Shown: piece after piece, positions 21,125 to 51,066 of the stretch
Position numbering within the stretch: the stretch's first letter is position 1
How the letters are laid out: each line of letters begins with the position of its first letter
Virus genome (UHGV): UHGV-1376088
Direction: 5' to 3' (one strand)
Length of the DNA: 64,000 nucleotides
Source of the DNA: a virus
Position numbers and translations under genes: made by a program
The notes under the pieces: generated by a model
What the model was told of the DNA's origin: nothing
What the model saw: the letters and a program-made list of their open reading frames with translations, nothing else
The model's database searches: none

Positions 21125-21137
21125 CAAGGAAGTTAAA

Positions 21138-30889: not shown

Positions 30890-30954
30890 AATCTTATTGT
30901 AAAATATACTATACCTATAATGATATAGGTTGTTTTTTACAAGAAAGGATTTCT

Positions 30955-31766: not shown

Positions 31767-31767
31767 A

Positions 31768-33796: not shown

Positions 33797-33800
33797 TTGA

Positions 33801-36621: not shown

Positions 36622-37114
36622 ATATGTCATAGACTGTTCTAGTCCTAGGCGAAAAACGCGAAATAGAATTAGAAGGTTTGAAAAATCTATTCTTATGCTG
36701 GAAGGATTGAGGTATTTTGCATTTCCTAAAGATTTGGCCAATATAGAAAAAAGAATTCAACAATATAAAGATAAGATCCGAGAAAAGGAACTTAGATATG
36801 GCGATTTTTTACACCTTTGCGGCATTAAAAAAGATATTAGCGAAACCCAAAGGAAGATACACTTTAATAAAATCCAATTTAGAGAGCTTAATGAAAAAAT
36901 TAACTCTATAAACAGCTATATCGAAAGTGCTATAAATCCCTTTGATTTTGATTATATCGAATTGAGAATTATCAAATCGAAAAAGGAAATGCAACGCCTT
37001 AAGGATTTGCGAATTGCTCTTGGAAAAGAACAATATGGTCTAAAGAAAAGGCTCAAAGAGGGTTATCGTTCTTTAGCAAATCTCCATAATGATACAGGTA
37101 AAGAAAATGGCTGA
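36614..37114 (+). CDS. hypothetical basic coiled-coil protein (intron cargo)
   Basis: 166 aa, K/R-rich. Confidence 0.3.
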   Translation: MDKYVIDCSSPRRKTRNRIRRFEKSILMLEGLRYFAFPKDLANIEKRIQQYKDKIREKELRYGDFLHLCGIKKDISETQRKIHFNKIQFRELNEKINSINSYIESAINPFDFDYIELRIIKSKKEMQRLKDLRIALGKEQYGLKKRLKEGYRSLANLHNDTGKENG

Positions 37115-37370
37115 ATATAAAACATTAAGAGAATTAGTTTTATCCTTTTCTGACACCGATTGGTTTAAAGAACATAGAGCAAATATTATGTTTGAATTAA
37201 ACCATTGTGAACTTCATCATATTGATTCCTATTATTTGAATTTATACAATGCAGGCGTTAAAGGTATAGAGGAAAATGAAGCTAATTCTTCTATTGCATA
37301 TTTACTCGGAATTGTAACAACCCCGCCAAATGGTAAAGTTCATACTGTTGGCGGAGGTTTCCCGGATTAA
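37089..37370 (+). CDS. hypothetical protein (intron cargo)
   Basis: 93 aa. Confidence 0.25.
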   Translation: MIQVKKMAEYKTLRELVLSFSDTDWFKEHRANIMFELNHCELHHIDSYYLNLYNAGVKGIEENEANSSIAYLLGIVTTPPNGKVHTVGGGFPD

Positions 37371-37623
37371 AGAAATAGTCCCTTTGTTAAGAAATTGACA
37401 ACAGAAAACTCTGTGAAAACGGTGGAACTCTCTAGAAGACAATGCCGTGCGAAAGTTTGCGAAAGCGAAAGACGTGTAACGACTATTATGTAGGGCCAAG
37501 TGGTTCGAAGCGCAGAGCACCTAAATCCTTATGGACATGGTGATGAGATAGTCTGGTCTCTATGGCGACATAGAGCTGGTTTTGTACCGGGTATAGATTA
37601 ACGACCTATACTGAACATAAACG

Positions 37624-38456
37624 ATTGATTCCGATGTAGAAAAAGAAAGACGCGCTGAAGTATTTGAAATGCTTAAAGATAAGTATGGAGAAGGATTTGC
37701 GCATCTTGGTACACTAACCTATACTGGCGGCAAAAAGGCATTTAAAGATGCTGCACGTATTCATGGTATGGGTTTTGATAAAGCAAATAAGATATCGTCC
37801 ATGATGCCTGAAATTGGATGTCCTCCACTTGACGTATTACTCAAAGAAGACGATGAAATCAAGGCATTGTATGACTCAGACCCCGAAGTAAAAGAGGTCT
37901 GGGACGATGCAATTAAGCTCAGTGACTGTTTATCCAGTCAAGGGGTTCATGCATGTGGAGTTGCATTGTCTGATCGTCCACTATGGGAAGATGTTCCACT
38001 TTGGGATAGCAAAGGCGTTCCTGTTATTCAGTGGGAAGGTAATAAAATTGAAGAAACGTCAAATGTTGTAAAATTAGATGTGCTTGGGTTAAAAACGCTT
38101 ACAGTTCTTAACTTTGCAAGAGAGCTAATTAGAAAGCGTCATGGTATTGACATTGACTGGTATAATTTACCAATGGACAATGAAGCGGCATATAAAGTTC
38201 TTTGGAACGAAAGAAACTATGGCATATTTCAATTTGAAGAAGCTGGTATGTCTGGATTCGTTAATGCTTGTAAGCCTAAAACTATTCATGATATTGCAGT
38301 AATTGTATCAACTTACAGGCCTGGGCCGTTAAACATTCCCGGATTGGTACAACGAATTATAGGAAAGATTTCTGGAGAACTTCCTCCAACGAAATTTAGA
38401 TTTCCTAAGTATGACCACATCTTTAGTAGTGCACATAACGAATTGATTTTTCAGGA
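37624..38456 (+). CDS. dnaE: DnaE exon 2
   Basis: I-D-S-D-V (catalytic Asp pair) E-K-E-R-R-A-E-V-F-E-M-L-K-D-K-Y-G-E-G-F-A-H-L-G-T-L-T-Y aligns with E. coli [33 protein letters not shown]. It ends at I-F-Q-E (E. coli I-L-Y-Q-E-Q). Confidence 0.65.
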
Positions 38457-39534
38457 AGGTTCGAATGGCCTTTGTCAAAGGTAACAAATTACAACAGAAA
38501 TATAGCGATGAGCTTATAAATAAAATAATCGAAGAATATCTTGGTGGCCTTACTGCCGTTGAGCTTGGCAAGAAATATAGTATTAAACCTGGAACCATAA
38601 ATTACCATCTAAGAAAAAGAGGGTTAAGCAGAGGGTCAGGCAAGCCTAGCTCGATAGCAAATAAGGATTACTTTGAAACTATAGATACAGAAGAAAAAGC
38701 ATATTTCCTCGGCTTTCTTATGGCTGATGGATGCATAAGCTCTTCTCATGTAAACTATCATATAAAATTAGTGCTTCAAGAAAAAGATGCAGACGTGATA
38801 AAAGCATTCTTATTAGCTATTGGAAGCAGTAATTCTATTACGAAAGTTATAAAGAATAACCATATTGGCTACTCTGTATCCTTAAGTTGCAAAAAGATGT
38901 TTTACGATTTAGTTAATCATGGGTTTTTGGAGCATAAATCTGGGAATGAAATTATTCCGAATACTATTCCAGATGAGCTTATTCGTCATTTTATTAGAGG
39001 TTATTTTGATGGCGACGGATGTGCATCCAAAGAAGGAAGAATAAGCATCGTAGGCGGAATAAAGATCCTTGAAGATATAGCCAAACACGCGATGATTGAC
39101 GATTATAGTATTTATGAGTTTAAAAATACTTCTGTTGTACGCGATTTGAGATACTCTAAATTAAGAAGCTCCAAATTGTTTTATAATTATCTTTACAAAG
39201 ATGCCAATATCTTTTTATATAGAAAGTGGATTAGACTTTTCAATGTCCACGGCCCTATATAAAAGAGGGACGTTTAAAGTGGAAACACTTTTTATTATGA
39301 CTGGCCAATATCGGTGGAGGGATTTTGCTTTTATCCTAATACCGAGATAACTCCGTATTTAAATGATGCGGAGCATCGTAGAGCATAGAATCTGAAACTC
39401 CAATGGAGAATATAATGATTCCACGAGTGGCCGGCACCTAAGTTGATTTTCAATATGGTGAAAATGTATGCCGAACTATATCGAGAGCAAAAGTAGATAT
39501 AGAGCCAAAGGATAAAAAGCCTTTGGGATAACAA
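38457..39534 (+). mobile_element. group-I-like intron containing a LAGLIDADG homing endonuclease ORF
   Basis: The intervening sequence sits between the exon 2 end and the exon 3 start. The 3' 270 nt (39263..39534) carry the shared intron core. Confidence 0.6.
38465..39262 (+). CDS. LAGLIDADG homing endonuclease (double motif)
   Basis: Two motifs, Y-F-L-G-F-L-M-A-D-G-C-I-S and F-I-R-G-Y-F-D-G-D-G-C-A-S. An N-terminal HTH-like segment is present. Confidence 0.75.
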   Translation: MAFVKGNKLQQKYSDELINKIIEEYLGGLTAVELGKKYSIKPGTINYHLRKRGLSRGSGKPSSIANKDYFETIDTEEKAYFLGFLMADGCISSSHVNYHIKLVLQEKDADVIKAFLLAIGSSNSITKVIKNNHIGYSVSLSCKKMFYDLVNHGFLEHKSGNEIIPNTIPDELIRHFIRGYFDGDGCASKEGRISIVGGIKILEDIAKHAMIDDYSIYEFKNTSVVRDLRYSKLRSSKLFYNYLYKDANIFLYRKWIRLFNVHGPI

Positions 39535-39612
39535 ATTGTCCTCCGTCTATCAAAAGAGATGTGCGGCTTCTCTGATATTAAAGCTGATGTTCTGAGAAAG
39601 GCTGTAGGTAAG
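39535..39612 (+). CDS. dnaE: DnaE exon 3 (micro-exon, about 26 aa)
   Basis: V-L-R-L-S-K-E-M-C-G-F-S-D-I-K-A-D-V-L-R-K-A-V-G-K aligns with E. coli [21 protein letters not shown]. Confidence 0.6.
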
Positions 39613-39852
39613 TTAATTGCCCCTTGTTTTAGTAATAAGACAATGTGCATCGAGCAAAATCGGTGAAGGCTGAGATGCTAATACCGAGGTAAGTTTGCAG
39701 GAACTGTAAACCACCGTAGAGCGTAGAGATTGAAAAGATATAATATCTCCAAGAGTGTTCGACATCCTAATGGGATGAAAATGTACGCCGAACTTATGCA
39801 AATATGAAGCATAAGAACTATCGGATAAAAAGCCGATAGGTTAACATAATTG
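39613..39852 (+). mobile_element. ORF-less group-I-like intron
   Basis: About 240 nt. Shares the aatcggtgaagg...aataccgaggtaagt...gtagagcgtag...atgtacgccgaact...ggataaaaagcc motifs with the other introns. Confidence 0.55.
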
Positions 39853-39984
39853 AAAAAAGATGCAGCCAAACTAGCATCACTCAGAGAAGACTTCATCAAT
39901 GGTGCAGTAGCCAATGGTGAAGATAAAAAAGAAGTAGCGCAATTCTGGGAAGAGCTCCTAGAGTTTGCGAGGTATGCATTTAAC
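39853..39984 (+). CDS. dnaE: DnaE exon 4 (about 44 aa)
   Basis: K-K-D-A-A-K-L-A-S-L-R-E-D-F-I-N-G-A-V-A-N-G-E-D-K-K-E-V-A-Q-F-W-E-E-L-L-E-F-A-R-Y-A-F-N aligns with E. coli K-K-P-E-E-M-A-K-Q-R-S-V-F-A-E-G-A-E-K-N-G-I through V-E-K-F-A-G-Y-G-F-N. The ORF-track TTG start is an artefact. Confidence 0.6.
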
Positions 39985-40263
39985 GCTTTGATTTATAAGA
40001 GAAAATCTGAGGCGTCTAGTATAGCAATATATTAGATTATCAGTGGGCAAAATCGGTGAAAGGATTTACCTTGTATTCCCAATACCGAGATAAGTTTAAG
40101 GTTAACATCTTAAACTATTGTAGAGCATAGGCGGTGAAACTCGTTAGAGAATATAATCCGCCCAAGAGTGTCCGCCTTCCCTATGGGAAGAAAATATATG
40201 CCGAACTATGGAGAGTGTAAAGTATCCATAGAACTAGAGGATAAAAAACCTCTAGGATAACAA
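39985..40263 (+). mobile_element. ORF-less group-I-like intron
   Basis: About 280 nt. Same core motifs, and the same ...ggataacaaTTG 3' end as the intron before exon 3. Confidence 0.55.
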
Positions 40264-41541
40264 TTGTCGCATGCGTACTCCTATGGTCATCTAACCTACT
40301 ATACTGCATGGCTTAAAGCCAATTATCCGGAAGAGTTTTATTGTTCTATTATTACTTGTGAAACTGATCCTCCAATGAAGAAGACTTATATGGAGGATGC
40401 TGTATCTAAGGGTATTAATATCTTGCCGCCGGATTTAAATGAATCTGTAGGTACTTTTGGTCTTAACCGTAATAATGATATCATTTACGGTTTGTCCGGC
40501 ATTCGTGGTATTGGTGATGGCGCCGTTAGCAAATTAATTGAACTTAGACCTTATAGTAGCTTTGGCGATTTTCTTCTTAGAACTTATCTTTTAACTACTA
40601 ATATTAATAAGAAGGTTTGTGATAGTTTAATTCTTTCCGGCGCGGTTGATTCTTTTGGATATAAACGAAGTGTTTTGATTCGCTCGTATTCGAAATTTAT
40701 TCTTGATTTTGACCCTAGAGGAACACTAAAAAAAGAATGCAGGGCAGCAAAAGGTTTAACGCCCGAAGCTGAAGAGAGAATTAAAGAGTTCTGCAAAATG
40801 GAACACAAATATTTTGTTGACCCATTGTTTAAAGAATTCACACTTCTTGAAATCTTAGAGGCAGAAAAAGAGCTTATTGGTGTGTATATCTCTGGAAACC
40901 CTATGGATGTTATAGCCAAAGATGTTAAAGAGATGCACCATGATTCTGTTTTTATTGAGAATCAAGTTGCCGAAACTGGCGTTTATCATGGTTCAACTAT
41001 ATGTCAGGTTTCTAAGGTTAGAGCTATCACAACTAAAACCGGTAAACCTATGGCTTTTATTGAGGCTAAAGATATAAATGGTAGAGATTATGGTTTTACG
41101 GCGTTTTCAAATGTCTATGAACATAATAAAGATCTATTTGTGGTAGGAAAATATTTACAATGTTTTATCACTGCCAAGCCTAGCTATAGGGGTACCGGTA
41201 TTGACTGTGTTATCAATTCTGTCTTAGATTTAACAGCCGATAATTCTGGATCGAATGAAGAGGCTGCATCAGTCTTTGAGGAAATTACCATCAATTTAAC
41301 TGGAATTCCTTCTCCGATTAAATTTAGAACTATCCTTAATAAAATTAGGGATAATAAGTCTGATGATGACAACAATACAAAAGTGTTTATAACCATGACT
41401 GATTTTGAACCAGAAGTTAGCCCTGGCGTCAAAATTAATAAAACAACTATACGGTTTGGTCCATTCTATATCAAGACTGCGGATATTGACGTTGTTAGAG
41501 ATTTTAATGGACTTAGAGATGTAACAATCTCTACAAGATAA
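40264..41541 (+). CDS. dnaE: DnaE exon 5 (C-terminal region)
   Basis: S-H-A-Y-S-Y-G-H-L-T-Y-Y-T-A-W-L-K-A-N-Y-P-E-E-F aligns with E. coli [24 protein letters not shown]. The G-I-N-I-L-P-P-D-L-N and G-L-S-G-I-R-G-I-G segments also match. Confidence 0.7.
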   Translation: MSHAYSYGHLTYYTAWLKANYPEEFYCSIITCETDPPMKKTYMEDAVSKGINILPPDLNESVGTFGLNRNNDIIYGLSGIRGIGDGAVSKLIELRPYSSFGDFLLRTYLLTTNINKKVCDSLILSGAVDSFGYKRSVLIRSYSKFILDFDPRGTLKKECRAAKGLTPEAEERIKEFCKMEHKYFVDPLFKEFTLLEILEAEKELIGVYISGNPMDVIAKDVKEMHHDSVFIENQVAETGVYHGSTICQVSKVRAITTKTGKPMAFIEAKDINGRDYGFTAFSNVYEHNKDLFVVGKYLQCFITAKPSYRGTGIDCVINSVLDLTADNSGSNEEAASVFEEITINLTGIPSPIKFRTILNKIRDNKSDDDNNTKVFITMTDFEPEVSPGVKINKTTIRFGPFYIKTADIDVVRDFNGLRDVTISTR

Positions 41542-41962: not shown

Positions 41963-42344
41963 TAGTCTTGAAAATATTAATATAAAGACGACCTTTTTCC
42001 CTGAAGATAAAGTGGATTTTAACGGCATTCCTCTTGACGGAGATGCTATTCCGGCAAAGGGAGTAAATCTCCATGTCTCTATTAAAAAGTCTATTCTTCT
42101 AGCATGTATTAATGCTATGGCAAATAATAAAAATGCTATCTATGAGTTAACACCTTATGCTGATGTTTCTCTTAGTGAAATAGGTGAACCAATAGGCGTA
42201 ATGATCCGTAGAGATGAAGACATGATGATTCGTCTTTATTATAAATGTCGGATCGAAGAGGATGGTATTGCGTATGAACACTTTTTCGATATGCGTCCAT
42301 ATATGCCAATGGACCTAATTCATTTTATTACTGAGTTTAAATAA
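41940..42344 (+). CDS. hypothetical protein
   Basis: Internal Met of ORF 41880..42344. Overlaps the upstream gene end. Confidence 0.3.
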   Translation: MIKQFFIDSLENINIKTTFFPEDKVDFNGIPLDGDAIPAKGVNLHVSIKKSILLACINAMANNKNAIYELTPYADVSLSEIGEPIGVMIRRDEDMMIRLYYKCRIEEDGIAYEHFFDMRPYMPMDLIHFITEFK

Positions 42345-43282
42345 TGAAATTTTTTAAAAGAATCGAAGATAATATACTGGCGCCTCCACCATTAAAGGGC
42401 AGTAGGTTAAAAACGCTTTATCCATCGTCTGCTTCATGTCGTGATATTGATGATCCAACTAAAATTCATGGCGGCTGTTTAAGAGCAACGTGGTACAGAT
42501 TGGCCGGATATTCGGAATCTGACCCGTCTGGAGCGTATAGTCAATACATCTTCGCCGCAGGTAAAATGTGGGAGGAATGGATTATTGAGCAATGTAAGCT
42601 CGGTGGATTCTTTTTGATGAATAATCTAAAATTCTCCATCCCAGAATATTATCTATCCGGCGAAATAGATATTGCCATTAAGGATCCAGATACCGGTGAG
42701 GTTATTATTGTAGAGTCTAAAACTTATAGCTCTGCTAATTATAGCGCTAAGGCCGAATATGCCGGCATTGGTGGAAGAGTTCCTATGCCTAAGCATCAAA
42801 ATGTAATGCAGGCTGCTTTGTATTTGCATTACTTTAGTGCACCGGAAAGGGGCGGTATCAATAGAGTTCTATTAACCTATTTTGATAGAGCCTGTGGCGG
42901 ACCTGAAAACAATAGGGAATTCTGGGTAACCTTAAGACCAGATGGCGGTAAAACATATATCCATATCGACACTGAAGATATCAAAGGTGTTCATCACTCC
43001 TATGATATGCCTGGAATTACACTAGAGGGTGTATTTGAACGATATGAAGAGCAGATTAATTCAGCTCGTGATTATAAAGATATGCCACCACCGCCCGACT
43101 ATGAGCATGTTTATTCTAAAGAGAAGGTAATTAAGCTTTGGAATGAAGGCGAAATAGCAAAAACTAAATATGAGAAATGGACGAAAAATCCAAATGCCAA
43201 TCCTATCGGTGATTGGCAATGTGCATATTGCAACTATAAGACTATTTGTAAACAACAAAAAGAAGAACAAGGATATACATAA
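42344..43282 (+). CDS. PD-(D/E)XK nuclease with C-terminal Cys cluster (Cas4/RecB-like)
   Basis: G-E-I-D-I-A-I-K-D then V-I-I-V-E-S-K-T gives the D...E-x-K core. C-terminal W-Q-C-A-Y-C-N-Y-K-T-I-C plus an N-terminal Cys suggest an Fe-S cluster. Confidence 0.45.
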   Translation: MKFFKRIEDNILAPPPLKGSRLKTLYPSSASCRDIDDPTKIHGGCLRATWYRLAGYSESDPSGAYSQYIFAAGKMWEEWIIEQCKLGGFFLMNNLKFSIPEYYLSGEIDIAIKDPDTGEVIIVESKTYSSANYSAKAEYAGIGGRVPMPKHQNVMQAALYLHYFSAPERGGINRVLLTYFDRACGGPENNREFWVTLRPDGGKTYIHIDTEDIKGVHHSYDMPGITLEGVFERYEEQINSARDYKDMPPPPDYEHVYSKEKVIKLWNEGEIAKTKYEKWTKNPNANPIGDWQCAYCNYKTICKQQKEEQGYT

Positions 43283-43698: not shown

Positions 43699-46224
43699 AT
43701 GTCTTACAGAAAAATAAGTGATTTTGAAAGTCAGCTTGACAGTATTCGAATGTTCTTACCTGCGTATTTACATGAGCATGGCCTTAATGTTGAAAACGGT
43801 AAGAAGATTTGTTGTCTAAATCCTGATCATAATGATCATCATCCTTCTATGTCAATGTTTATGGCAGAACAGGGTTATCCTCTAGTGAAATGCATGAGCT
43901 GTGGCTCAACTATGGATATATTCAATGCGGCACATGTACTAGAAGACAAACCTATGTCTGGTCCGGGATTTGTTGACAACACTGTTGCATATCTTGCTGA
44001 CAAATACGGTATTGAGCTTGTATATAGAAAATTATCTGAAGATGAAATATATGAGCTAAATATGTATCAGGCCTATGAGGCCACTTCAAATTATATTGTC
44101 TCTCAAACCGATTTAAATGATAAGCAGTTAGGAGAGATGGAGAAGCGTGGATTCAGTCGTGAATTCATGAAAAAGTATCGAATCGGCGTATGTAATGATG
44201 TCGTGGATTTAAGAAAATACCTAAATAATCTTGGATTTAAAAATACATTTATTGATGAAATTGATTTATGTAATCCAATGCTATTTAATCCTTCTAATTT
44301 TATTTATACCATTTGTGATGAATTTGGAAGACCGGTCGGCTTTCAGGCACGAAATCTTAATTATGATGGAGTGGTGAATGAAGACGGTAAGCTTATCAAT
44401 GGTCCTAAATTTATCGGGACTAAAAATGGTGTAAAGAAAAACATCTACAAGAAGAATGAAAGACTTTATCTATTGGATAAAGCGAAAAAGACAACTGATT
44501 CTATTTTCGTAGTAGAAGGTAATTCCGATGCATTAAGTTTGCATAACCATGGAATGACAAATGCCGTAGGTATTTGTGGGTTAGATTTTTCTGAAGCACA
44601 CTTAAATACATTGCGCCGTAATGGGTTGTATAATGTTACTATATGCTTAGACAATGATGAGGCTGGTAGACAAAAAGCAATAGACATGCTTGACAAGGTT
44701 GTCGCCAAAACTCATGATATAAAATTTTCATTTGTATTTCTACCTGATGAATATGTAGATGGCGTTAGGGTTAAAATAGACCCTGATGAATTTGTCCGCA
44801 AGTATGGAATCGAGAAGTTTAAAGAGATTCCAAGGGTTTCATCTTTCTCGTGGAGACTGTCCTTATTTGAAGATGAGGATATGGATCCTGCAGATATCTG
44901 TGAAAAAATGGTTCCAATTATAACTAGTGAACCTAGTTCTATTAGAAGAGAAAAGATGATTTCCGAATTGTCTATATTCACTGGTTACAGCGATAGGGTC
45001 ATTCGCGATGAGGTGAATAAATCCGAAAGAGAAAAAACTCGCAGAAGCGAAGACTCTAAAAGGGCAATTGTAGACAAGCTGATCAAAGATTTGAGTAATG
45101 ACTCGGGGAATCAATCTGAACTTTTACTCAGTGAAGCACTGTCTAATATAGGACAGATTAACCAAATGAATAGCACAGATATTATGGACACATCTGCTCG
45201 TGTTAATAATATTTTAGGAATCAAGGAATACCAAGAAGATCCGTCCAGTGGTAAATATACAGATTGGGGCGGGGATATGCCAATACTGTCTGCAACTACA
45301 GATGGCGATATTCAAGAGAAGGTTGTTTTCATTGGTGGTTCCTCTAACTCCGGTAAAACCTCATGGCAAGTTAATTTGTCTTGGCGCATAGTAGAAAATA
45401 ATCCACATGCAATGGTAATCTTTCTTTCTATTGATGATAGTGCAAAAGAGTTATTGCCAAGATTTATTTCTTATGATGCAGCAAAAAGAGCAAAAGACAA
45501 TGGCAATATGGATATTTTTAATGCTATTAATATTAATAAGTTCGCGAAACCAGAGCTTTATAAAGGTAGCAGAGAATACCCTATGATCTTAGAAGAGCGG
45601 GAGGTGTTTTTCCGTAAATTCTTAAGTTATGCCAGAGAAGATAGATTCATTATTTATGATAGTGTTGATGGCCGTTCCTTAGCCTTTATTAGGACATTAA
45701 TGTCTAATTATAGAGATAAGTATCCCGGTAGACATATCTATTTCTTTATAGACAATTTCCATTTGATTCAAGTCCCAACTGAAAAATCTGGACGAGAAAA
45801 ATTCCAACATATTTCACATGAATTAAAAGCATATTCTGTGGAGTTTGGGCTTACTGTTGTTTCTACTGTAGAATATACAAAAATGCCAGCAGATGTTCGT
45901 CCACACAATAATAACATTGCTGAGTCCAACAGCCTTGTGTATGATAGCAACTTGATTATGCATGGTTGGAATGAGCTACACGGCTTGCGAGAAAAAGCGG
46001 TAGCTTATCATATCGACTATAGCGAAGAGGATGAGGTTCATCGTAAGAAACCTCTTGTTATTTGGAGCATCGGTAAGAATAAGGTTGCATCTTTTAAAGG
46101 TGACATTCCAACTAGATTCTGGCCGGAGAAAGCTTATTTTGAAGAAATGGCGCCGCGTGAATTCGAGGCTTTAATTGCGCAAAATACAGCTATTGCTCAA
46201 GACGGTTTTAATCAAAATGTTTAA
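43699..46224 (+). CDS. DNA primase-helicase (T7 gp4-like)
   Basis: Zinc finger C-C-L-N-P-D-H-N-D-H-H-P-S through C-M-S-C-G. TOPRIM segments V-V-E-G-N-S-D-A-L-S-L and I-C-L-D-N-D-E-A-G-R. C-terminal Walker A G-G-S-S-N-S-G-K-T-S-W and a DnaB-like helicase region. Confidence 0.8.
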   Translation: MSYRKISDFESQLDSIRMFLPAYLHEHGLNVENGKKICCLNPDHNDHHPSMSMFMAEQGYPLVKCMSCGSTMDIFNAAHVLEDKPMSGPGFVDNTVAYLADKYGIELVYRKLSEDEIYELNMYQAYEATSNYIVSQTDLNDKQLGEMEKRGFSREFMKKYRIGVCNDVVDLRKYLNNLGFKNTFIDEIDLCNPMLFNPSNFIYTICDEFGRPVGFQARNLNYDGVVNEDGKLINGPKFIGTKNGVKKNIYKKNERLYLLDKAKKTTDSIFVVEGNSDALSLHNHGMTNAVGICGLDFSEAHLNTLRRNGLYNVTICLDNDEAGRQKAIDMLDKVVAKTHDIKFSFVFLPDEYVDGVRVKIDPDEFVRKYGIEKFKEIPRVSSFSWRLSLFEDEDMDPADICEKMVPIITSEPSSIRREKMISELSIFTGYSDRVIRDEVNKSEREKTRRSEDSKRAIVDKLIKDLSNDSGNQSELLLSEALSNIGQINQMNSTDIMDTSARVNNILGIKEYQEDPSSGKYTDWGGDMPILSATTDGDIQEKVVFIGGSSNSGKTSWQVNLSWRIVENNPHAMVIFLSIDDSAKELLPRFISYDAAKRAKDNGNMDIFNAININKFAKPELYKGSREYPMILEEREVFFRKFLSYAREDRFIIYDSVDGRSLAFIRTLMSNYRDKYPGRHIYFFIDNFHLIQVPTEKSGREKFQHISHELKAYSVEFGLTVVSTVEYTKMPADVRPHNNNIAESNSLVYDSNLIMHGWNELHGLREKAVAYHIDYSEEDEVHRKKPLVIWSIGKNKVASFKGDIPTRFWPEKAYFEEMAPREFEALIAQNTAIAQDGFNQNV

Positions 46225-47086
46225 TAATGAAATAGAGGAACTGGTTTTAACTGAGAGGGTAGAGATACCCTCTTGGGATAAAAGGACTAGGGCTGATGCT
46301 CCTTATATGGAGCTCAATGCAAATATGTTTAAATTGTATACTCAGTGTAGGTATAAGATTAATGCTCCCGACACTATTTATCGTAATTTAAACCAAATAA
46401 TTTGCTTTGAGGGATTGTCATCAGAAGATGAAAACCTTGGAATAAAAGAGCGTGCATCTTTAGCTTTATATGAAGCTATTAAGATCTATATGTCAGACTT
46501 AAATGGGCCTAGCAATGCGCCTATTCTTTACTTTGAACGTAAGATTAAGAAAATACTTACCAATGAGGATGAGAATATAGAGTCTTATAAGGCGTCTTTG
46601 CGCAGGTTCCTCACCGAAATTTTAGATAGAATTTCTGATAGGGTCTATAATTCCAAAGGGGCAATCAATGATGAACTTATATTCTGGTCTTATGGCAGAA
46701 AGCCGCGAAAAACATTTCATACATTTATAGATCTTATCCTGTTGATGGAAGATGGGATTGAAGTATTTCTATTGACCCCTTTCCATCAGGATAATAATCC
46801 TATGTATGCTTATAATAATTCAAGAGCCATGGCTGTAATTAAGCATATAGAAGATATGGGTATTAAGGTTAAAACCATACATGAAATTAGAGTTCCATTT
46901 GGTTGGACTCCCAATTCAAATACTGGTGTAACCAAAAGGCCCGATTTTTCAAACAATCCCTTGAAAAATATTGCTATTAAATTTATGAATTCTGATTCTA
47001 CTTCCGGAGGAAATCCCGGGAAATGCTCTGCTTGCCTTAATCATAGCCATTGTGGGATACAAAAAATGATACCTGATAATTTCTAA
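46217..47086 (+). CDS. hypothetical protein
   Basis: Start at an internal Met overlapping the primase stop (ORF-track 46175..47086). Confidence 0.3.
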   Translation: MFNNEIEELVLTERVEIPSWDKRTRADAPYMELNANMFKLYTQCRYKINAPDTIYRNLNQIICFEGLSSEDENLGIKERASLALYEAIKIYMSDLNGPSNAPILYFERKIKKILTNEDENIESYKASLRRFLTEILDRISDRVYNSKGAINDELIFWSYGRKPRKTFHTFIDLILLMEDGIEVFLLTPFHQDNNPMYAYNNSRAMAVIKHIEDMGIKVKTIHEIRVPFGWTPNSNTGVTKRPDFSNNPLKNIAIKFMNSDSTSGGNPGKCSACLNHSHCGIQKMIPDNF

Positions 47087-48193: not shown

Positions 48194-49041
48194 AAATAAA
48201 AATAATTGCGACATTGGATTAAGCTCCACCAGTATTTTTGATTTAAAAGTATACTGCATGATAATTTTCCTTTAACCCGGGCCGACCAGGGAAGAGTCGG
48301 CAAACAGCTCTAGGGTTGTTATAAAGGCTAAACATTTTCTGGTAGAAAATGTGCGCAAGGCTAGCGCCTTGCCGGCGACGGCGCCGGGCCCAGGAGATCT
48401 GGTCCCGTTGCCACGGAAGCTTGCCTTCCGATCTTTGTCATCCGAGGATGAATATACTTAGATTTTAAATATACGCTTATGGTATATTTAATTAAATGCA
48501 TTTTAAAGTGCCTTTAAAATGAAGGGTCCCTGTGGCTTGTTGTCAGTGAAGAACTGGCAGAATGATTCTAGGTGTTCCTATCTTAGATGAATCGAGGTTC
48601 ATTAATAATAATCATATTATTTCTTCCAAATAATATGAGAAGACCTGTGGTCTTCTCTGATGAGCTGAGCTGCAGTATGCACCTCCGCTCAACGAAAGTT
48701 TACCTTTCGACCTTTAAATGGATTCAGGTTCATTAATATCAATTTGCATTATTTATGCTAAATAATGCTCCCGCAACCTAGACCGCTTCGCGATCTATGG
48801 CCGGTTGCGTCGGATTTATCCGGGAACATGCTTCCCGGCCTTTAAATACATTAAAGTTTCTGAGAGTCAAGGCTCGTTATATCAGTGGTCTTAAATTTAT
48901 TCTAAATTTAAGAATTAAGCAATTATTTTATCACCTCCTTCCCGGCGGCCGGAGGTGAACGGTCTAATTCTAGACCGTCCTTTACGAACTATAGTTCGTT
49001 TTAGATGTTCCTATTACAATAATTACAGAAGGAATAGTAGT
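48194..49041. promoter_or_regulatory. about 850-bp noncoding region densely packed with perfect hairpins and repeated CTTTAAAT / AGGTTCATTAATA motifs
   Basis: At least 12 perfect 6-10 bp inverted repeats. Examples are gagaagacc-tgt-ggtcttctc, ccgggaa-catgc-ttcccgg, acggtcta-attc-tagaccgt and acgaacta/tagttcgt. Two 55-nt direct repeats each end in a 10-bp AT hairpin. No ORF with an RBS. Confidence 0.5.
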
Positions 49042-51066
49042 ATGACAGGCACAGTATTTGGGAATGAATTATTTCCCAAAACCTTATTCTTGGACCGCAG
49101 CCAGGGCGCTACGGTCCAGCGCTTTGATAATCCTAGATATAAAGTTATCTTGGATTTATTTACAATGCAGCTTGAGAAAATCTGGAGACCAGAAGAAATT
49201 GATATGACTAATGATAGAATCAATTTCCCTTTATTGACGAAAGCTGAAGAGCACATTGTTATTTCTAATATCAAGCGTCAAATTTTGTTAGACTCAATTA
49301 TGGGTAGGGCACCTACGGCTGTTTTTAATCCTGCAGTTGCAGACCCTAGTCTTGAATGTGTTATTCAGACATGGTCTTTATTTGAATGTTTGGCCGAAGG
49401 CACCGAGGTTCTTACTGATAAAGGATGGCTCGATATTAAAGATGTAACTATGGAAACTATGGTTGCACAATATCGTTCTACCAATCGAGGACTTTATTGG
49501 ACTCACCCTGAAAAAGTTCATGTTTACGATAAAGACGAAGAGCTTATTCGATTTAAATCTACTGATGGCTCTTTTGAGCAATTCGTGACAAGTGCCCATA
49601 GAATGCCATTTTTCAATGAGAACTTATTTGGCTTTGAAGAAGCAGAATTTTTTAATCCAAATGAATATATAAGAATCCCATTGACTGGTACTTCTTTTGA
49701 AGATGAAGAATTTAGTGACGAATTTGATCCTCTGACTTTAGCAAAAATTTGTGCAACAACCCTTGGTTATTATTTAAAAACTCAAGAAGGTATCCCTGAC
49801 GAAATTCATTTCTATGGAAGAAATAAATATGCGGCGAATTTGTTGTCAAATTTGGCACAGCCGACATATGTACTCGATGACCGTATTGAGTTTGAATTAG
49901 AAGGAACAATTGAAGATGTCTATCATAATCGCCTTACTGATATACTCCCTCTTTCTTCGATGACCTACTTGAAGGGCTATCAGCTTCTTGGTGTAATCAA
50001 GAATATGGTAGAAGCATCTGGAAGTAAAAATCTTTGGGTTGAACGGAAAGAAATCATTGATGATATCCAGGCATTGTTATTCATGGCCGGCATCCATTCC
50101 ACATACAAAGAAGAGGATGGCGGATATATCCTTCTTATTAGAGATGAAGATAGTATCTCTGGTGGTATTGTTGAAAAAACCCACGAGAAATATACTGGTA
50201 AAGTTTATTGCCTGACTGTCCCAACTGGTGCATTTGTTGTTCGATATAATGGTATTCCATCTGTAACGGGAAATTGTTTGCATTCATTCTCCTATACACA
50301 TATTATCCAACAGTCCTTTGTGAATCCAAAAGAGACATTGGATACTGTTATGGATATTCAAGAGATTGTCCAATGCAAGGATAGTATTTGTAAATATTAT
50401 GATGACGCTATTCAAAAGGTTCAAGATTATTATGAAGGTAGATGTGAGCGTATTGACGCTGTAAGATCCTTATGGCTTGCCTTACATACTGCAAATGCGT
50501 TGGAGTCTATTCGATTCCAGGTTTCCTTTGCATGTAGCTTTATCTTTGGACAAATGGGGAAATTGCCAGGACTTGCACGTATTATCAAGCTCATCAACAG
50601 GGACGAGAACATTCATGTTGCAATTACAAATAATCTTCTAAGCATTCTTCCTGTTGACGATATTGATTTTCTTATTGTGTCTGAAGAGGAAGATGTTAAG
50701 CGGGCCGTTGAAGGGATCTGGCGAGATGCTATTATGGAAGAACTCGACTGGTGTAAATACCTGTTTAAAGAGGGCGAGATCTTTGCATTTAATCAGTCTA
50801 TCCTTGAAGAGTATTTGCGCTATCTTGCTACATCAAGACTCAAAAAATATGGTCTGCCTCCATTAGAAGAATTATGTAATTTGCCTTCTGCTACTAAAAA
50901 TCCTATTCCTTGGGTTACTGCCTGGAATGGGGAAGAGAAAGAGCAGGTTGCTCCGCAAGAAGCGGAAAAAACAGATTATGAGCGCGGCATTATTGATAAA
51001 TCTCAAACAAACTATGGAGAGATTCTATCTGCGTTTAACAAATTTAGTGGGGAGAAAAGTCAATGA
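49042..51066 (+). CDS. nrdB: ribonucleotide reductase small subunit NrdB, interrupted by an intein
   Basis: True start is ATG 49042 after an aggaa RBS. The track start 48955 reads through the hairpins. Extein total is 379 aa with NrdB-like helices. Confidence 0.7.
   Translation: MTGTVFGNELFPKTLFLDRSQGATVQRFDNPRYKVILDLFTMQLEKIWRPEEIDMTNDRINFPLLTKAEEHIVISNIKRQILLDSIMGRAPTAVFNPAVADPSLECVIQTWSLFECLAEGTEVLTDKGWLDIKDVTMETMVAQYRSTNRGLYWTHPEKVHVYDKDEELIRFKSTDGSFEQFVTSAHRMPFFNENLFGFEEAEFFNPNEYIRIPLTGTSFEDEEFSDEFDPLTLAKICATTLGYYLKTQEGIPDEIHFYGRNKYAANLLSNLAQPTYVLDDRIEFELEGTIEDVYHNRLTDILPLSSMTYLKGYQLLGVIKNMVEASGSKNLWVERKEIIDDIQALLFMAGIHSTYKEEDGGYILLIRDEDSISGGIVEKTHEKYTGKVYCLTVPTGAFVVRYNGIPSVTGNCLHSFSYTHIIQQSFVNPKETLDTVMDIQEIVQCKDSICKYYDDAIQKVQDYYEGRCERIDAVRSLWLALHTANALESIRFQVSFACSFIFGQMGKLPGLARIIKLINRDENIHVAITNNLLSILPVDDIDFLIVSEEEDVKRAVEGIWRDAIMEELDWCKYLFKEGEIFAFNQSILEEYLRYLATSRLKKYGLPPLEELCNLPSATKNPIPWVTAWNGEEKEQVAPQEAEKTDYERGIIDKSQTNYGEILSAFNKFSGEKSQ
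49387..50274 (+). mobile_element. intein (296 aa) in NrdB
   Basis: Starts C-L-A-E-G-T-E-V-L-T-D-K-G-W. Block F/G V-Y-C-L-T-V-P-T-G-A-F-V-V-R-Y-N-G-I-P-S-V-T-G-N is followed by Cys. The penultimate His is replaced by Gly. A central region may hold a degenerate endonuclease. Confidence 0.6.

What the first reader, a model, noticed from the sequence alone, without database searches (positions are those of the whole stretch)
48194..49041. 850-bp noncoding region upstream of nrdB made of more than 12 perfect hairpins with recurring CTTTAAAT and AGGTTCATTAATA motifs
Nearly the whole region can be parsed into stable stem-loops. Examples are gagaagacc/ggtcttctc, ccgggaa/ttcccgg, cacctcc...ggaggtg, acggtcta/tagaccgt and acgaacta/tagttcgt. 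It also contains two 55-nt direct repeats, each ending in a perfect 10-bp AT-rich hairpin (catattattt/aaataatatg and gcattattta/taaataatgc). Several hairpins are followed by ctttaaat. This is far larger and more structured than a simple promoter or terminator gap. It could be an sRNA cluster, an RNA-processing or attenuation array, a replication origin, or degenerate tRNA-like or intron remnants. The ORF-track N-terminal extension of nrdB (48955..49041) lies inside it and is spurious.
Basis: seen in the sequence. Interest (0 to 1): 0.6.

Follow-up and report, generated by a model that had tools for sequence, protein, structure and literature searches.

The report
Tandem hairpin-module RNA array before nrdB
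The 850-base gap in front of the ribonucleotide-reductase genes of this uncultured ~180 kb phage is a real, conserved, sense-strand array of about five repeated hairpin modules that matches no described RNA family, most likely a regulatory leader for the reductase operon, though its function is untested.

Summary
Region 48194-49041 is noncoding and is the most structured 848-nt stretch of the window. It contains every perfect hairpin of 10 bp or more found in the 64 kb.

It is not a random pile of hairpins. It is a tandem array of about five 105-185-nt modules with a fixed grammar. Each module has:
- S: a 5-bp hairpin with a YNAG tetraloop that looks like a ribosome-binding site.
- An A/U-rich stretch resembling TAATAT.
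- A: a perfect AT-rich hairpin.
- G: variable GC-rich hairpins.
- T: a terminator-like hairpin (CGGAAG-n5-CTTCCG) followed by R-YCUU.

An invariant 28-nt hairpin element (K, 48276-48303) precedes the array. A conserved hairpin that sequesters the nrdB ribosome-binding site follows it.

The gap is syntenic in all 24 relatives in which both flanking genes were found. Its length ranges from 384 to 902 nt, and modules are shuffled between relatives. Stems are kept by compensatory changes. G-U pairs and a junction covariance model place the element on the + strand, and only at this locus.

Rfam, ARAGORN, GC skew, a TIGR-Tas check and a CRISPR-type comparison gave no family assignment. My best reading is a cis-acting attenuator, insulator and stabiliser leader for nrdB-grx-nrdA (about 0.4). 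A cluster of processed small RNAs is the main rival.

The parts
48194..49041 (+). Whole noncoding hairpin-module array between the homing-endonuclease-like ORF and nrdB.
   Evidence: No conserved ORF. RNA fold z = -10.7 against shuffles. Most structured 848-nt window in the 64 kb. Syntenic in all 24 relatives in which both flanking genes were found.
48215..48228 (+). Hairpin just after the stop codon: UGGA-UUAAGC-UCCA.
   Evidence: The loop UUAAGC is conserved. The stem changes from UGGA/UCCA to GAGG/CCUC in L006 and L007 (alignment).
48257..48265 (+). Conserved CATGATAAT (P), which resembles a -10 promoter box. It lies 10 nt upstream of K.
   Evidence: Conserved position and sequence (CATGATAAT, CATGATGAT or CATAATGAA) in all relatives of the 88-98% NrdA-identity clade. 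The scan calls TTGATT-16-GATAAT a 9/12 promoter-like site, but the -35 part is not conserved. Promoter function is an inference.
48276..48303 (+). K element: CCCGGG-GCCGAC-CAGGG(N)AGA-GUCGGC-AA. It is a 6-bp hairpin with a 9-nt loop.
   Evidence: The flanks and stem are invariant. Only 1-2 loop bases vary across all 19 relatives of the 88-98% clade, while the rest of the gap diverges. It is absent from the 62% clade.
48303..48320 (+). S1: small hairpin with a CUAG tetraloop, followed by TATAAAG.
   Evidence: Orthologues covary (ACAAUU/GAUUGU, ACGAUU/GGUCGU, CGAAU/AUUCG).
48332..48352 (+). A1: perfect 9-bp AT-rich hairpin.
   Evidence: A compensatory U-A to C-G change is seen in L067 and L068.
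48355..48412 (+). G1: two GC-rich hairpins (48355-48373 and 48374-48412).
   Evidence: MFE and centroid folds. Coordinated substitutions on both arms in L067 and L068.
48414..48461 (+). Junction 1. It contains the T1 hairpin CGGAAG-CUUGC-CUUCCG, then A-UCUUUG, then S2 (48438-48451, CGAG loop), then AATATAC.
   Evidence: Covariance model R1 gives 53.7 bits, E = 8e-9. The scan flags it as terminator-like. Covariation is shown.
48465..48521 (+). A2 and A2': two perfect 10-bp AT-rich hairpins (48465-48491 and 48499-48521).
   Evidence: The A2 stem covaries, and its loop GCUUWKG is conserved in relatives.
48521..48582 (+). Long irregular hairpin rich in G-U pairs. Its 3' arm carries the conserved GAUGAUUCU and a copy of the nrdB leader motif GUUCCUAU.
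   Evidence: RNAalifold consensus with compensatory pairs on the + strand only. Direct repeat D5 links it to 48999-49014. On its own it is thermodynamically unremarkable, z = -1.0.
48570..48611 (+). Junction 2, a variant without a T hairpin. It has YCUUAGA, then S3 (48586-48603, CGAG loop), then TAATAATAAT.
   Evidence: R1 hit at E = 2e-4, and this copy was not in the training set. Also.
48612..48692 (+). Body of unit 3: A3 (perfect 11-bp hairpin, 48612-48638), a 9-bp hairpin (48637-48657) and a branched GC hairpin (48662-48692).
48693..48742 (+). Junction 3. It contains T2 (CGAAAG-UUUAC-CUUUCG), then A-CCUUUAAAU, then S4 (48717-48734, UCAG loop), then TAATATC.
   Evidence: R1 gives 65.3 bits, E = 3e-11. 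The S4 stem shows compensatory changes in L067 and L068.
48746..48815 (+). Body of unit 4: A4 (perfect 10-bp hairpin, 48746-48768) and a branched GC hairpin (48769-48815).
   Evidence: Compensatory changes are seen in L068 and L075. The orthologous A4 stem changes A-U to U-A in L001-L003.
48820..48875 (+). Junction 4. It contains T3 (CCGGGAA-CAUGC-UUCCCGG), then CCUUUAAAU, then an extra 6-bp hairpin (48840-48856), then S5 (48864-48875, CAAG loop), then TTATATC.
   Evidence: R1 hit at 48821-48866, E = 0.009, not in the training set. Also. T3 shows a compensatory G-C to A-U change in L067, L068 and L075.
48889..48958 (+). Body of unit 5: A5 (perfect 11-bp hairpin, 48889-48913) and the hairpin UCACCUCC...GGAGGUGA (48931-48958).
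   Evidence: A5 changes A-U to G-C in L001 and L002.
48959..48999 (+). T4 hairpin (48959-48978), then CCUUUAC, then a 6-bp hairpin (48984-48999).
   Evidence: Both stems are replaced by different but still complementary sequences in L001, L002 and L006.
49000..49041 (+). Conserved nrdB leader UUUAGAUGUUCCUAUUACAAUAAUUACAGAAGGAAUAGUAGU. UGUUCCU (49006-49012) can pair with the ribosome-binding site AGGAAUA (49030-49036).
   Evidence: Nearly invariant in the 93-98% clade. The pairing is predicted in the window and in most relatives folded. L008 folds into a different stem next to the ribosome-binding site. A CCUU-based geometry for L008 is my own hand reading. Because the leader is invariant there is no covariation test; occlusion of the ribosome-binding site is an inference.

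Best explanation
The gap is transcribed on the + strand together with its flanking genes. It acts in cis as a modular, hairpin-saturated leader, or 'punctuation stack', for the nrdB-glutaredoxin-nrdA operon.

It was built by tandem duplication of this phage's ordinary intercistronic signal. That signal is a short GC hairpin, then YCUUU, then a ribosome-binding-site-like sequence held in a small hairpin. In the array, stable hairpins take the place of ORFs.

The proposed mechanism has four steps, all inferred:
1. The T hairpins followed by R-YCUU(U) act as weak intrinsic terminators or 3'-end stabilisers. A series of two to five of them attenuates or insulates transcription entering the reductase operon. 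Changing the number of modules would tune the level of read-through.
2. The invariant K hairpin at the 5' end is the one sequence-specific recognition element. It may be a nut/put-like site for a phage or host factor that lets RNA polymerase read through, or a processing signal.
3. Near-complete base pairing, plus the S hairpins that resemble 5' stabilisers, protects a long untranslated RNA from Rho and from exonucleases.
4. The final conserved hairpin occludes the nrdB ribosome-binding site and so gates translation.

What is shown: the structures, their conservation, the strand, the modularity and the confinement to this locus. What is inferred: termination, antitermination, processing and translational control.
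For: The structure is real and under selection:
- Fold z = -10.7 against shuffles, and the region is the most structured 848-nt window of the genome.
- In the S hairpin, 75 of 75 cells are paired and all 5 pairs show double changes; 0 of 500 shuffles match this.
- Compensatory double substitutions occur in A, G, T and S stems between genomes that are otherwise nearly identical.
- RNAalifold finds 21 pairs with double changes.

The active strand is the sense strand:
- The alifold consensus energy is -35.7 kcal/mol on the + strand against -19.4 on the - strand.
- S stems contain 14 G-U cells and no A-C cells.
- Hairpins followed by YCTT occur 6 times on the + strand and 0 times on the - strand.
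- All 57 R1 hits other than one - strand chance hit (E = 0.63) are on the + strand.

The array is modular:
- Repeat spacings are 128-132 nt.
- The same junction recurs 2-5 times per genome.
- By my hand parse, the 62% clade, which has no primary-sequence similarity in the gap, follows the same S-A-G-T grammar.

The cis reading is favoured over independent genes:
- The same hairpin + YCUUUAC + ribosome-binding-site-in-hairpin arrangement sits in the 55-nt spacer before gene 21138. There is no room for a promoter there, so that hairpin must be intercistronic.
- Real translation-start regions at 13298 and at nrdB also pair a CCU/UCCU stretch with the ribosome-binding site.
- The S3 region is a partial duplicate of the nrdB leader (D5).
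- The variable hairpin bodies have no conserved single-stranded 'seed' and no complement of 13 nt or more elsewhere in the window.
- The order is promoter-like box, then invariant K hairpin, then several terminator-like hairpins, then the operon.
- The array always lies immediately upstream of nrdB.
Against: - No expression data exist, so terminator, antiterminator and processing activity are all untested.
- The T hairpins are short (5-8 bp) and have poor U-tracts of 3-5 U. That is weaker than this phage's other terminator-like sites.
- K is invariant, so it gives no covariation support. It is also absent from the 62% clade.
- The -35 part of the putative promoter is not conserved.
- -10-like hexamers (TAATAT, TATACT, TATAAA) sit 5-7 nt before each A hairpin. 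This fits independent small-RNA promoters equally well.
- The junction motif is confined to this locus, so it is not simply the genome's general punctuation signal.
- The long perfect stems show no G-U over A-C excess (11 against 7, p = 0.48). For those stems a DNA-level or mutational origin cannot be excluded.
- Why a leader would need about 20 hairpins is not explained.
Confidence: 0.4

Rival explanations
1. The region is a cluster of about five independent or co-processed small noncoding RNAs of ~100-130 nt. Each would start at the perfect AT-rich hairpin, which caps the 5' end, and finish at the T hairpin plus CCUUU. These RNAs would act in trans as protein decoys or sponges, for example against a host RNase, an RNA-binding regulator or a defence sensor. 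This would be comparable to T4's stable RNAs C and D, or to viral hairpin decoy RNAs.
For: - A -10-like hexamer lies 5-7 nt upstream of every A hairpin (sequence). The A, G and T elements together form a compact ~100-nt unit made entirely of hairpins.
- Junctions are conserved while bodies evolve fast and are shuffled between strains. That is what an arms-race target would look like.
- A/U-rich single-stranded linkers flank S, and these are typical sites for endonuclease cleavage.
- The junction is unique to this locus.
Against: - There is no usable -35 box, and the spacing is inconsistent (12-18 nt) if CTTTAAA or TTGTCA is taken as the -35 (hand analysis of the sequences).
- S sits where a promoter spacer would be, yet it covaries as RNA, so it must be transcribed from further upstream.
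- The bodies share no conserved sequence or loop motif that a protein could recognise.
- The terminators are weak.
- There are no expression data.
Confidence: 0.27
2. The array is a largely neutral by-product. It would come from tandem duplication of the nrdB regulatory junction, plus quasi-palindrome or template-switch mutation and double-strand-break repair next to a homing-endonuclease-like gene. These processes generate perfect short-loop palindromes and keep correcting them. The spacer would be tolerated rather than functional.
For: - The upstream ORF matches homing-endonuclease families (phrog_559, phrog_9084, phrog_3339), and the genome is full of introns and homing-endonuclease genes.
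- The long stems are perfectly Watson-Crick, with no G-U excess over A-C.
- Length polymorphism (384-902 nt) and mosaicism between near-identical genomes.
- Individual sub-elements are thermodynamically unremarkable.
Against: - By my hand parse, the grammar persists across clades that share only ~62% protein identity and no nucleotide similarity in the gap.
- K and the nrdB leader are invariant.
- The S hairpins and the irregular hairpin use G-U pairs on the + strand only. Mutational palindrome correction does not predict that.
- The rest of this genome is tightly packed, so a neutral 850-nt spacer would be expected to be lost.
Confidence: 0.15
3. The region is a DNA-level element, such as a replication origin, a single-strand priming signal, or a recombination or packaging site. 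It would work through extruded hairpins or cruciforms.
For: - The palindromes are perfect, AT-rich and have 3-5-nt loops.
- The - strand folds as well as the + strand when the region is taken as a whole.
- The region lies ~2 kb downstream of the primase-helicase gene, inside the replication and nucleotide-metabolism module.
Against: - Neither GC skew nor AT skew changes at the locus. The skew follows gene orientation and flips only at ~57 kb.
- There are no iterons, meaning no repeated binding sequence; each palindrome is different.
- Strand asymmetry is strong: junctions, YCTT tails and G-U pairs are all + only.
- Stems covary rather than conserve sequence, which argues against protein operators.
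Confidence: 0.08
4. The region is an array of RNA guides, either a TIGR-Tas stem-loop array or a CRISPR-like or anti-CRISPR repeat array.
For: - It is a tandem array in a phage with conserved junctions and variable, consistently palindromic segments. This superficially matches the 'stem-loop arrays' described for TIGR-Tas (PMC12045711).
- Weak box-C/D-like strings such as CUGAUGAG and GAUGAUUCU are present, and there is a chance-level Rfam hit to a C/D snoRNA.
Against: - The hairpin loops are 3-7 nt. There is no room for the two 8-12-nt spacers flanked by C/D motifs that define TIGR units.
- Pfam and PHROGs searches named no Nop/Tas family and no Cas effector family among the neighbours. The 42344-43282 ORF does match Cas4-domain exonuclease families. 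Several small ORFs had no hit, and no fold comparison was done.
- The variable parts are self-complementary and match nothing else in the window.
- Units are 105-185 nt, not ~36-70 nt.
Confidence: 0.03

Closest known systems
PeSL cassettes (promoter-early stem-loop 'mobile regulatory cassettes') of T4-type phages (Arbiol et al. 2010; recalled from my own knowledge, not retrieved here)
   Same: Both are short repeated intergenic cassettes that combine a stem-loop with promoter-like A/T-rich boxes. Both are involved in modular shuffling between related phage genomes. The junctions here (T hairpin, CTTTAAA/TTGTCA and TAATAT-like boxes) are repeated, and modules are rearranged between strains.
   Different: PeSLs are dispersed between small ORFs throughout hyperplastic regions. 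Here the junction occurs only at one locus, in tandem, with no ORFs between copies. The -35/-10 spacing is not promoter-like. The segment between the boxes is a covarying RNA hairpin.
Processive antitermination leaders (lambda nut/N, HK022 put RNA, Bacillus EAR; from established knowledge)
   Same: The order is the same: a promoter-proximal conserved RNA hairpin element (K), then several terminator-like hairpins, then a long operon. K is the only sequence-invariant element in the array.
   Different: K has no sequence or structural similarity to boxB, put or EAR, and Rfam finds nothing. The boxA-like CCUUUAA is too variable to count. No N, Q or LoaP-like gene was identified. Terminator function is untested. 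Known systems have genes, not hairpin stacks, between their terminators.
TIGR-Tas stem-loop arrays (Faure et al. 2025, PMC12045711)
   Same: Both are phage-borne tandem arrays in which palindromic stems vary in sequence but are always maintained, with short conserved motifs and variable linkers.
   Different: There are no large loops with dual spacers and no conserved C/D motif pairs. The family searches named no Tas (Nop-domain) protein nearby. The units are much longer.
REP/BIME clusters of enterobacterial operons (from established knowledge)
   Same: Both are clusters of extragenic palindromes inside polycistronic units. REP/BIME clusters are thought to stabilise upstream mRNA and to attenuate transcription.
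   Different: REPs share a consensus sequence, alternate in orientation and are dispersed genome-wide. Here every palindrome is different, all elements are co-oriented, and the array is unique to one locus.
CsrB/RsmZ-type sponge RNAs and Bacillus 'Stab-SD' 5' stabilisers (from established knowledge)
   Same: Both show repeated small hairpins that present ribosome-binding-site-like AGG or GAGG in or next to the loop, without a downstream ORF.
   Different: The loops here are YNAG followed by G, not the ANGGA motif that CsrA needs. There are only about 5 copies. No link to CsrA or to the ribosome has been shown.

Membership tests
Any Rfam 15 family (riboswitch, ribozyme, sRNA, GOLLD/ROOL, T-box and others) | A covariance-model match at or near the family's gathering score. 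| tested here: not met
   No hit in the gap at gathering thresholds. At E<=10 there are only chance-level hits, the best being NsiR8 at 19.8 bits against a gathering score of 61.
tRNA / tmRNA / tRNA-like remnants | A cloverleaf detectable by ARAGORN, or T-arm/acceptor geometry. | tested here: not met
   ARAGORN finds 0 genes in the whole window. GGTTCA in the motif is the 3' arm of the 5-bp S hairpin, not a T-loop.
Group I intron or intron remnant | A match to the P3-P9 core (RF00028), or similarity to this genome's own introns. | tested here: not met
   RF00028 hits 37358-37575 (67 bits) and weakly 39600-39809, but nothing in the gap. The four-copy mini-intron consensus shows no evident similarity to the gap by eye; no direct comparison was run.
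Hammerhead ribozyme (because of CUGAUGAG at 48657-48664) | The CUGANGA...GAAA core with three stems and a non-G residue at position H17. | tested here: not met
   Hand threading on the sequence shows that stem III cannot form and that H17 would be G. There is no Rfam hit.
TIGR-Tas array (dual-repeat or stem-loop type) | An adjacent Tas protein carrying a Nop domain. | tested here: not met
   Pfam and PHROGs scans of neighbours within about +/-6 kb, and of the larger ORFs in the window, name no Nop/Tas family. The 109-, 112- and 124-aa ORFs had no hit and are too short for a Nop domain. The 303-aa ORF (46175-47086) also had no hit; my reading of it as Cas4-like rests only on a C-terminal CX2CX5C motif. 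No fold comparison was made, and the whole ~185 kb genome was not available.
TIGR-Tas array (dual-repeat or stem-loop type) | Units that carry two 8-12-nt spacers, each flanked by conserved box C/D motifs, inside the hairpin (PMC12045711). | tested here: not met
   The hairpin loops are 3-7 nt, and larger enclosed segments are themselves hairpins. No recurrent C/D motif pair is present.
CRISPR array or phage solitary repeat (RNA anti-CRISPR) | Near-identical 25-40-nt repeats separated by unique spacers of 30-40 nt; for anti-CRISPR RNAs, similarity to a host CRISPR repeat. | tested here: not met
   The repeats found are imperfect ~50-nt junctions at 128-132-nt spacing. The 'spacers' are self-complementary. 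The host and its CRISPR repeats are unknown, so mimicry of a host repeat could not be tested.
Intrinsic (factor-independent) terminators | A GC-rich stem followed directly by a U-tract, on the transcribed strand. | tested here: inconclusive
   Four hairpins followed by R-YCUU(U) lie on the + strand, and one of them passes the terminator scan. However the stems are only 6-8 bp and the tails have only 3-5 U. That is weaker than the other terminator-like sites of this phage.
Sigma-70/sigma-A promoters (one per unit) | -35 and -10 hexamers separated by 16-18 bp. | tested here: inconclusive
   -10-like hexamers recur 5-7 nt before each A hairpin. Candidate -35 boxes lie at 12-18 bp and are poorly conserved. 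The count of promoter-like sites in the region is not above the shuffle expectation (8 against 6.6).
lambda-type nut / HK022 put antitermination site | boxA plus boxB (or the put two-stem fold), and a cognate antiterminator protein. | not testable with these tools
   Only the architectural analogy holds (K hairpin upstream of terminator-like hairpins). No sequence similarity or partner protein was identified.
Replication origin | A strand-compositional switch, iterons or DnaA boxes, and an AT-rich unwinding element. | tested here: not met
   There is no skew inflection and no repeated binding motif. All signals are strand-asymmetric in the way expected of RNA.
PeSL-type mobile regulatory cassette | Multiple dispersed copies between ORFs across the genome. 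| tested here: not met
   The R1 junction model finds copies only in this gap across 401 kb of window and relatives. The pattern CGGAAGN5CTTCCGRYCTT hits each ~180 kb relative only at this locus.

The most novel reading that the evidence does not exclude
This could be a new class of phage noncoding RNA array. A leader element (K) would be followed by tandem units whose ~50-nt junctions are conserved and whose all-hairpin 'bodies' evolve and recombine rapidly. The transcript would be cut at the A/U-rich linkers into stable ~100-130-nt hairpin RNAs. These would act in trans as decoys or sponges for a host factor such as an RNase, an RNA-binding regulator or an RNA-sensing defence system. The fast turnover of bodies and the variation in copy number would reflect an arms race. 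Logically the array would resemble CRISPR or TIGR arrays, with conserved repeats and variable inserts, but it would carry structure rather than guide sequence.
Probability: 0.2. Interest if true: 0.8.

Novelty: new variant of a known kind. Interest (0 to 1): 0.55.

Why it matters
Large uncultured phages of the human microbiome carry long noncoding regions that are almost never examined. This one is a clear case of an 850-nt RNA element that is conserved in grammar but not in sequence. It evolves by module duplication, shuffling and compensatory substitution, and it sits at the entry to the nucleotide-synthesis operon.

If it is a multi-terminator leader with a dedicated recognition hairpin (K), it offers a compact and tunable system for studying temporal gene control in phages that have no cultured host. 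It would also be a candidate new antitermination or processing signal.

If the units are instead processed decoy RNAs, it would be a new kind of phage RNA array.

Practically, the covariance model and the S-A-G-T grammar give a way to find such arrays elsewhere. The finding also corrects the nrdB start codon.

Tried and rejected
- Rfam at gathering thresholds and at E<=10: nothing credible.
- ARAGORN: no tRNA or tmRNA.
- blastn of the region against 50,697 phage records: no match. NrdA and the primase-helicase have only distant isolate relatives, at most 41% and 27% identity, so no annotated relative or host could be used.
- The exact-protein lookup for the upstream ORF returned nothing.
- The K-element pattern in IMG/VR returned only contigs of the same clade. 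In 185,579 bacterial and archaeal genomes it returned 19 hits, all in high-GC bacteria, in apparently coding-dense DNA with no shared flanks. I treat these as chance matches with no host clue.
- The T-hairpin pattern in IMG/VR gave multiple hits only at this locus of the same phages, and single, presumably chance hits elsewhere.
- A strand test based on G-T versus A-C mismatches in the long stems was inconclusive, 11 against 7. The strand was settled instead by alifold on both strands, by the S-hairpin G-U pairs and by the covariance model.
- The alternative helix RCCU:AGGY is only weakly supported: 6 of 15 sequences are unpaired at the informative position. I dropped it in favour of the S hairpin.
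- Hammerhead reading of CUGAUGAG: rejected by hand threading.
- Small ORFs in the gap (48587-48736 and others) are not conserved; L001 has an immediate stop.
- Antisense targets: no complement or repeat of 13 nt or more elsewhere in the window, apart from one 13-mer on the same strand.
- TIGR-Tas: considered after a literature hit and rejected on loop size and the lack of any Tas-family match.
- The 303-aa neighbour had no PDB, Pfam or PHROG match and only homologues within the clade. I ran no further search on it, because its CX2CX5C motif suggests a Cas4-like nuclease. That is my inference only.
- Origin of replication: no skew signal.
Full report
**Context.** The window comes from an uncultured phage with a genome of about 180 kb.
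- Contigs of 171-189 kb in IMG/VR and ENA carry the same genes. Some IMG/VR contig identifiers begin 7000000, a numbering I recall as Human Microbiome Project samples.
- No isolate phage is close. NrdA is at most 41% identical to any isolate, and blastn of the region finds nothing.
- Positions 600-57,200 are tightly packed with + strand genes for replication and nucleotide metabolism. These include a ligase, thymidylate synthase, an SbcD-like exonuclease, a UvsX-like recombinase, a much-fragmented PolIII-alpha-like polymerase, a Cas4-like nuclease and a primase-helicase. After the finding come nrdB (apparently carrying an intein), glutaredoxin, nrdA and a dNMP kinase.
- The finding lies between a 162-aa ORF related to homing-endonuclease families (phrog_559, phrog_9084, phrog_3339) and nrdB.

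- The sequence is as described.
- The gap holds 15 perfect hairpins with stems of 6 bp or more, and 8 with stems of 8 bp or more.
- Across the whole 64 kb there are only 24 perfect hairpins of 8 bp or more. Every one of 10 bp or more lies in this gap.
- The 848-nt RNA folds with z = -10.7 on the + strand and -12.9 on the - strand against shuffles.
- A fairer control uses native 848-nt windows of the same genome, corrected for GC. The region is still the extreme, at z about -3.3 to -3.6, with the next best locus at -2.1.
- At 200 nt it ranks first but is not an outlier. Two sub-elements folded alone are unremarkable.
- So the signal is the uninterrupted density of perfect stems, not any one exceptional fold.
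- The nrdB N-terminal extension is spurious, because the upstream frame carries stop codons in most relatives. The true start is the ATG at 49042, preceded by AAGGAA.

**Anatomy.**
- Direct repeats at 128-132-nt spacing show that the region is a tandem array. Reading the folds of the window and its relatives side by side gives a consistent grammar.
- After the stop codon comes a small hairpin with the conserved loop UUAAGC. Next is a conserved CATGATAAT box (48257-48265). Next is K (48276-48303), which reads CCCGGG-GCCGAC-CAGGG(N)AGA-GUCGGC-AA.
- About five units follow. Each unit has these parts:
  - S: a 4-7-bp hairpin (5 bp in the model) with a YNAG tetraloop. Its loop and 3' arm read like a ribosome-binding site (GAGG, AAGG or CAGG followed by U).
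  - An A/U-rich stretch resembling a -10 box (TAATAT, TATACT or TATAAA).
  - A: a perfect 9-11-bp AT-rich hairpin, 5-7 nt further on.
  - G: one or two variable GC-rich hairpins.
  - T: a hairpin of the type CGGAAG-n5-CUUCCG followed by R-YCUU(U).
CTTTAAAT is the tail after T. AGGTTCATTAATA is the 3' half of S plus the A/U box.
- The array ends with T4, one more hairpin, and a ~40-nt leader that is nearly invariant in the 93-98% clade. In this leader UGUUCCU can pair with the nrdB ribosome-binding site.
- Unit 2 also contains a partial duplicate of that leader (repeat D5).

**Comparative evidence.**
- Nineteen IMG/VR loci and twelve metagenome loci were fetched. In the 24 where both flanking genes were found, the ORF-gap-nrdB order is kept.
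- The gap is 577-902 nt in the clade with 88-98% NrdA identity, and 384-395 nt in a clade with ~62% identity.
- The gap diverges much faster than its flanks. It is only patchily alignable, and modules appear in a different order in L001.
- By my hand parse, the S-A-G-T grammar persists even in the 62% clade, where no nucleotide similarity remains.
- K stands out. Its flanks and stem are identical in all 19 relatives of the 88-98% clade, and only 1-2 loop bases vary.
- Stems are maintained by compensation.
  - In an alignment of 15 junctions, the S hairpin is paired in 75 of 75 cells. All five of its pairs show double changes, and 0 of 500 shuffles reach this.
  - RNAalifold on an orthologous 200-nt block finds 21 pairs with double changes.
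  - Genomes otherwise almost identical to the window (L067, L068, L075) differ by coordinated two-arm substitutions in A1, G1, S4, G4 and T3. They also show a mosaic pattern that indicates recombination between array variants.

**Which strand, and RNA or DNA?**
- The long perfect stems carry no strand information (G-T 11 against A-C 7). The whole region therefore folds equally well on both strands.
- Four independent lines point to the + strand, which is the sense strand for the flanking genes:
  - The alifold consensus is -35.7 kcal/mol (covariation term -5.2) on the + strand, against -19.4 (-0.2) on the - strand.
  - S stems contain 14 G-U cells and no A-C cells.
  - Hairpins followed by YCTT occur 6 times on the + strand and 0 times on the - strand in the window. 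Four of the six are here.
  - A covariance model of the junction (R1: T, linker and S) finds 57 + strand hits at E<=1, all inside this gap, across 401 kb of window and relatives. These include window copies at 48570-48611 and 48821-48866 that were not used to train the model. The single - strand hit has E = 0.63.
- The element is therefore read as + strand RNA and is confined to this one locus. It is not a genome-wide punctuation mark.

**What it is not.**
- It matches no Rfam family and contains no tRNA.
- It does not resemble this genome's own group I introns.
- It is not a hammerhead, despite CUGAUGAG (hand threading).
- It does not code for protein. The small ORFs are not conserved.
- It shows no origin-like skew change.
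- It has no antisense match of 13 nt or more elsewhere in the window.
- A literature search turned up TIGR-Tas systems. Their 'stem-loop arrays' in phages also have variable but always palindromic stems (PMC12045711).
  - Those units carry two 8-12-nt spacers flanked by C/D motifs inside the hairpin, and they sit next to a Nop-domain Tas protein.
  - Here the loops are 3-7 nt, and the family searches of the neighbours named no Nop or Tas family.
  - I therefore reject membership of TIGR-Tas.
- The K pattern in bacterial genomes gave only chance hits in high-GC DNA that looks coding.

**Most likely mechanism (confidence about 0.4).**
- The array is a cis-acting leader for nrdB-grx-nrdA. It was assembled by tandem duplication of the phage's own intercistronic signal.
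- The key clue is that the same arrangement occurs before ordinary genes. At 21088-21137, a GC hairpin ending in ...CCGT is followed by TCTTTAC and a ribosome-binding site held in a small CAAG-loop hairpin, and then by the ATG. This 55-nt spacer has no room for a promoter.
- The start regions of gene 13298 and of nrdB likewise pair a CCU/UCCU stretch with the ribosome-binding site.
- The S modules therefore look like translation-start regions without an ORF, and the T modules look like intercistronic hairpins.
- In series, the weak T terminators would attenuate or insulate transcription entering the reductase operon. The number of units (two to five) would set the level.
- K is the only sequence-invariant element. 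It lies just after a conserved -10-like box and before the first T. That is the position expected for a recognition site for a read-through or processing factor, by architectural analogy with nut, put and EAR leaders.
- Saturating the RNA with hairpins would protect 850 nt of untranslated RNA from Rho and from exonucleases. The last hairpin would gate nrdB translation.
- All of these functional steps are inferred. None is shown.

**Rival explanations.**
- A cluster of about five small RNAs of ~100-130 nt is nearly as good (0.27).
  - For it: -10-like boxes sit 5-7 nt before each A hairpin, and fast-evolving bodies between conserved junctions fit a decoy in an arms race.
  - Against it: no usable -35 boxes, and S, which would lie inside the 'promoter', covaries as RNA.
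- A neutral origin cannot be dismissed (0.15). It would involve duplication plus quasi-palindrome correction next to a homing-endonuclease gene.
  - For it: the stems are perfectly Watson-Crick.
  - Against it: the grammar persists across clades, K and the leader are invariant, and G-U pairs occur on the + strand only.
- A DNA-level role (0.08) and a guide-RNA array (0.03) are poorly supported.

**Verdict.**
- The feature is real, conserved and strand-specific. It matches no described family, but its parts are ordinary: terminator-like hairpins, hairpins resembling ribosome-binding sites, and a leader hairpin.
- I class it as a new variant of a known kind, namely phage intergenic regulatory hairpin cassettes or leaders, and not as categorically new.
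- There is about a 20% chance that it is a new class of processed RNA array.
- Interest is 0.55. Transcript-end mapping would settle the question.

Noticed in passing
window 27335-27580, 39290-39545, 39625-39860, 40035-40270: Four related intervening sequences of ~230-250 nt share conserved blocks (AATACCGAG, GTAGAGCATAG, GAATATAAT, GAAAATGTATGCCGAACT, GGATAAAAAGCC, GATAACAA). Three of them interrupt short coding-looking pieces of a PolIII-alpha-like gene between 39.2 and 40.3 kb. One follows the UvsX-like ORF. One copy gives a weak Rfam group I intron hit (21 bits, E = 0.008). They look like a family of compact group-I-like introns that falls below Rfam's gathering score.
   Followed up: partly
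window 28589-41541: The PolIII-alpha-like DNA polymerase (phrog_405) is split into at least three separate ORFs (28589-30400, 37669-38484, 40264-41541). Between them are a canonical Rfam group I intron (37358-37575, 67 bits), an endonuclease ORF (38465-39262, phrog_4645) and the mini-introns above. This is an unusually fragmented essential gene.
   Followed up: partly
window 49042-51066 (nrdB); relatives L004-L006, L008, L009, L014, L015, L018: The ORF call for nrdB is 703 aa, or 674 aa from the true ATG, which is about twice the usual size. Its mid-region starts CLAEGTEVLT, which is intein-like. In several relatives the nrdA match spans ~3.19-3.32 kb instead of 2.33 kb, which indicates a polymorphic insertion (intein or intron) in nrdA.
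   Followed up: no
L016 6416-6665; L019 4669-5569; L076; L077: The homing-endonuclease-like ORF upstream of the array is itself interrupted after residue 56 by insertions of ~250-900 bp in some relatives.
   Followed up: no
window 13171-13215 (within the 198-nt gap 13100-13297): A single S-like module lies outside the array: the hairpin AGAAC-CAAG-GUUCU, then TGTATATC, then a GC hairpin (TGGGGCCCTTCCCCA). It sits ~85 nt upstream of gene 13298. That gene's ribosome-binding site (GAGG) can pair with an upstream GCCU. The R1 junction model did not score this site.
   Followed up: partly
window 21088-21137: An 11-bp hairpin ending in ...CCGT is followed by TCTTTAC and a small CAAG-loop hairpin that contains the ribosome-binding site of gene 21138. 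This has the same layout as a T+S junction of the array, but here it serves a real gene.
   Followed up: partly
window 46175-47086: This 303-aa ORF probably starts at the internal Met, giving ~289 aa. It has no Pfam, PHROG or PDB sequence match and only homologues within the clade. Its C-terminal CSACLNHSHC (CX2CX5C) motif resembles the Fe-S motif of Cas4/RecB-family nucleases. A second Cas4-domain ORF lies at 42344-43282.
   Followed up: partly
window 48931-48958: The left arm of the G5 hairpin (AUCACCUCCUU) copies the anti-Shine-Dalgarno 3' end of 16S rRNA, and the right arm is a perfect GGAGGUGA. This is not conserved: relatives have GCAUCC...GGAUGC in its place. It is probably coincidental.
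   Followed up: partly
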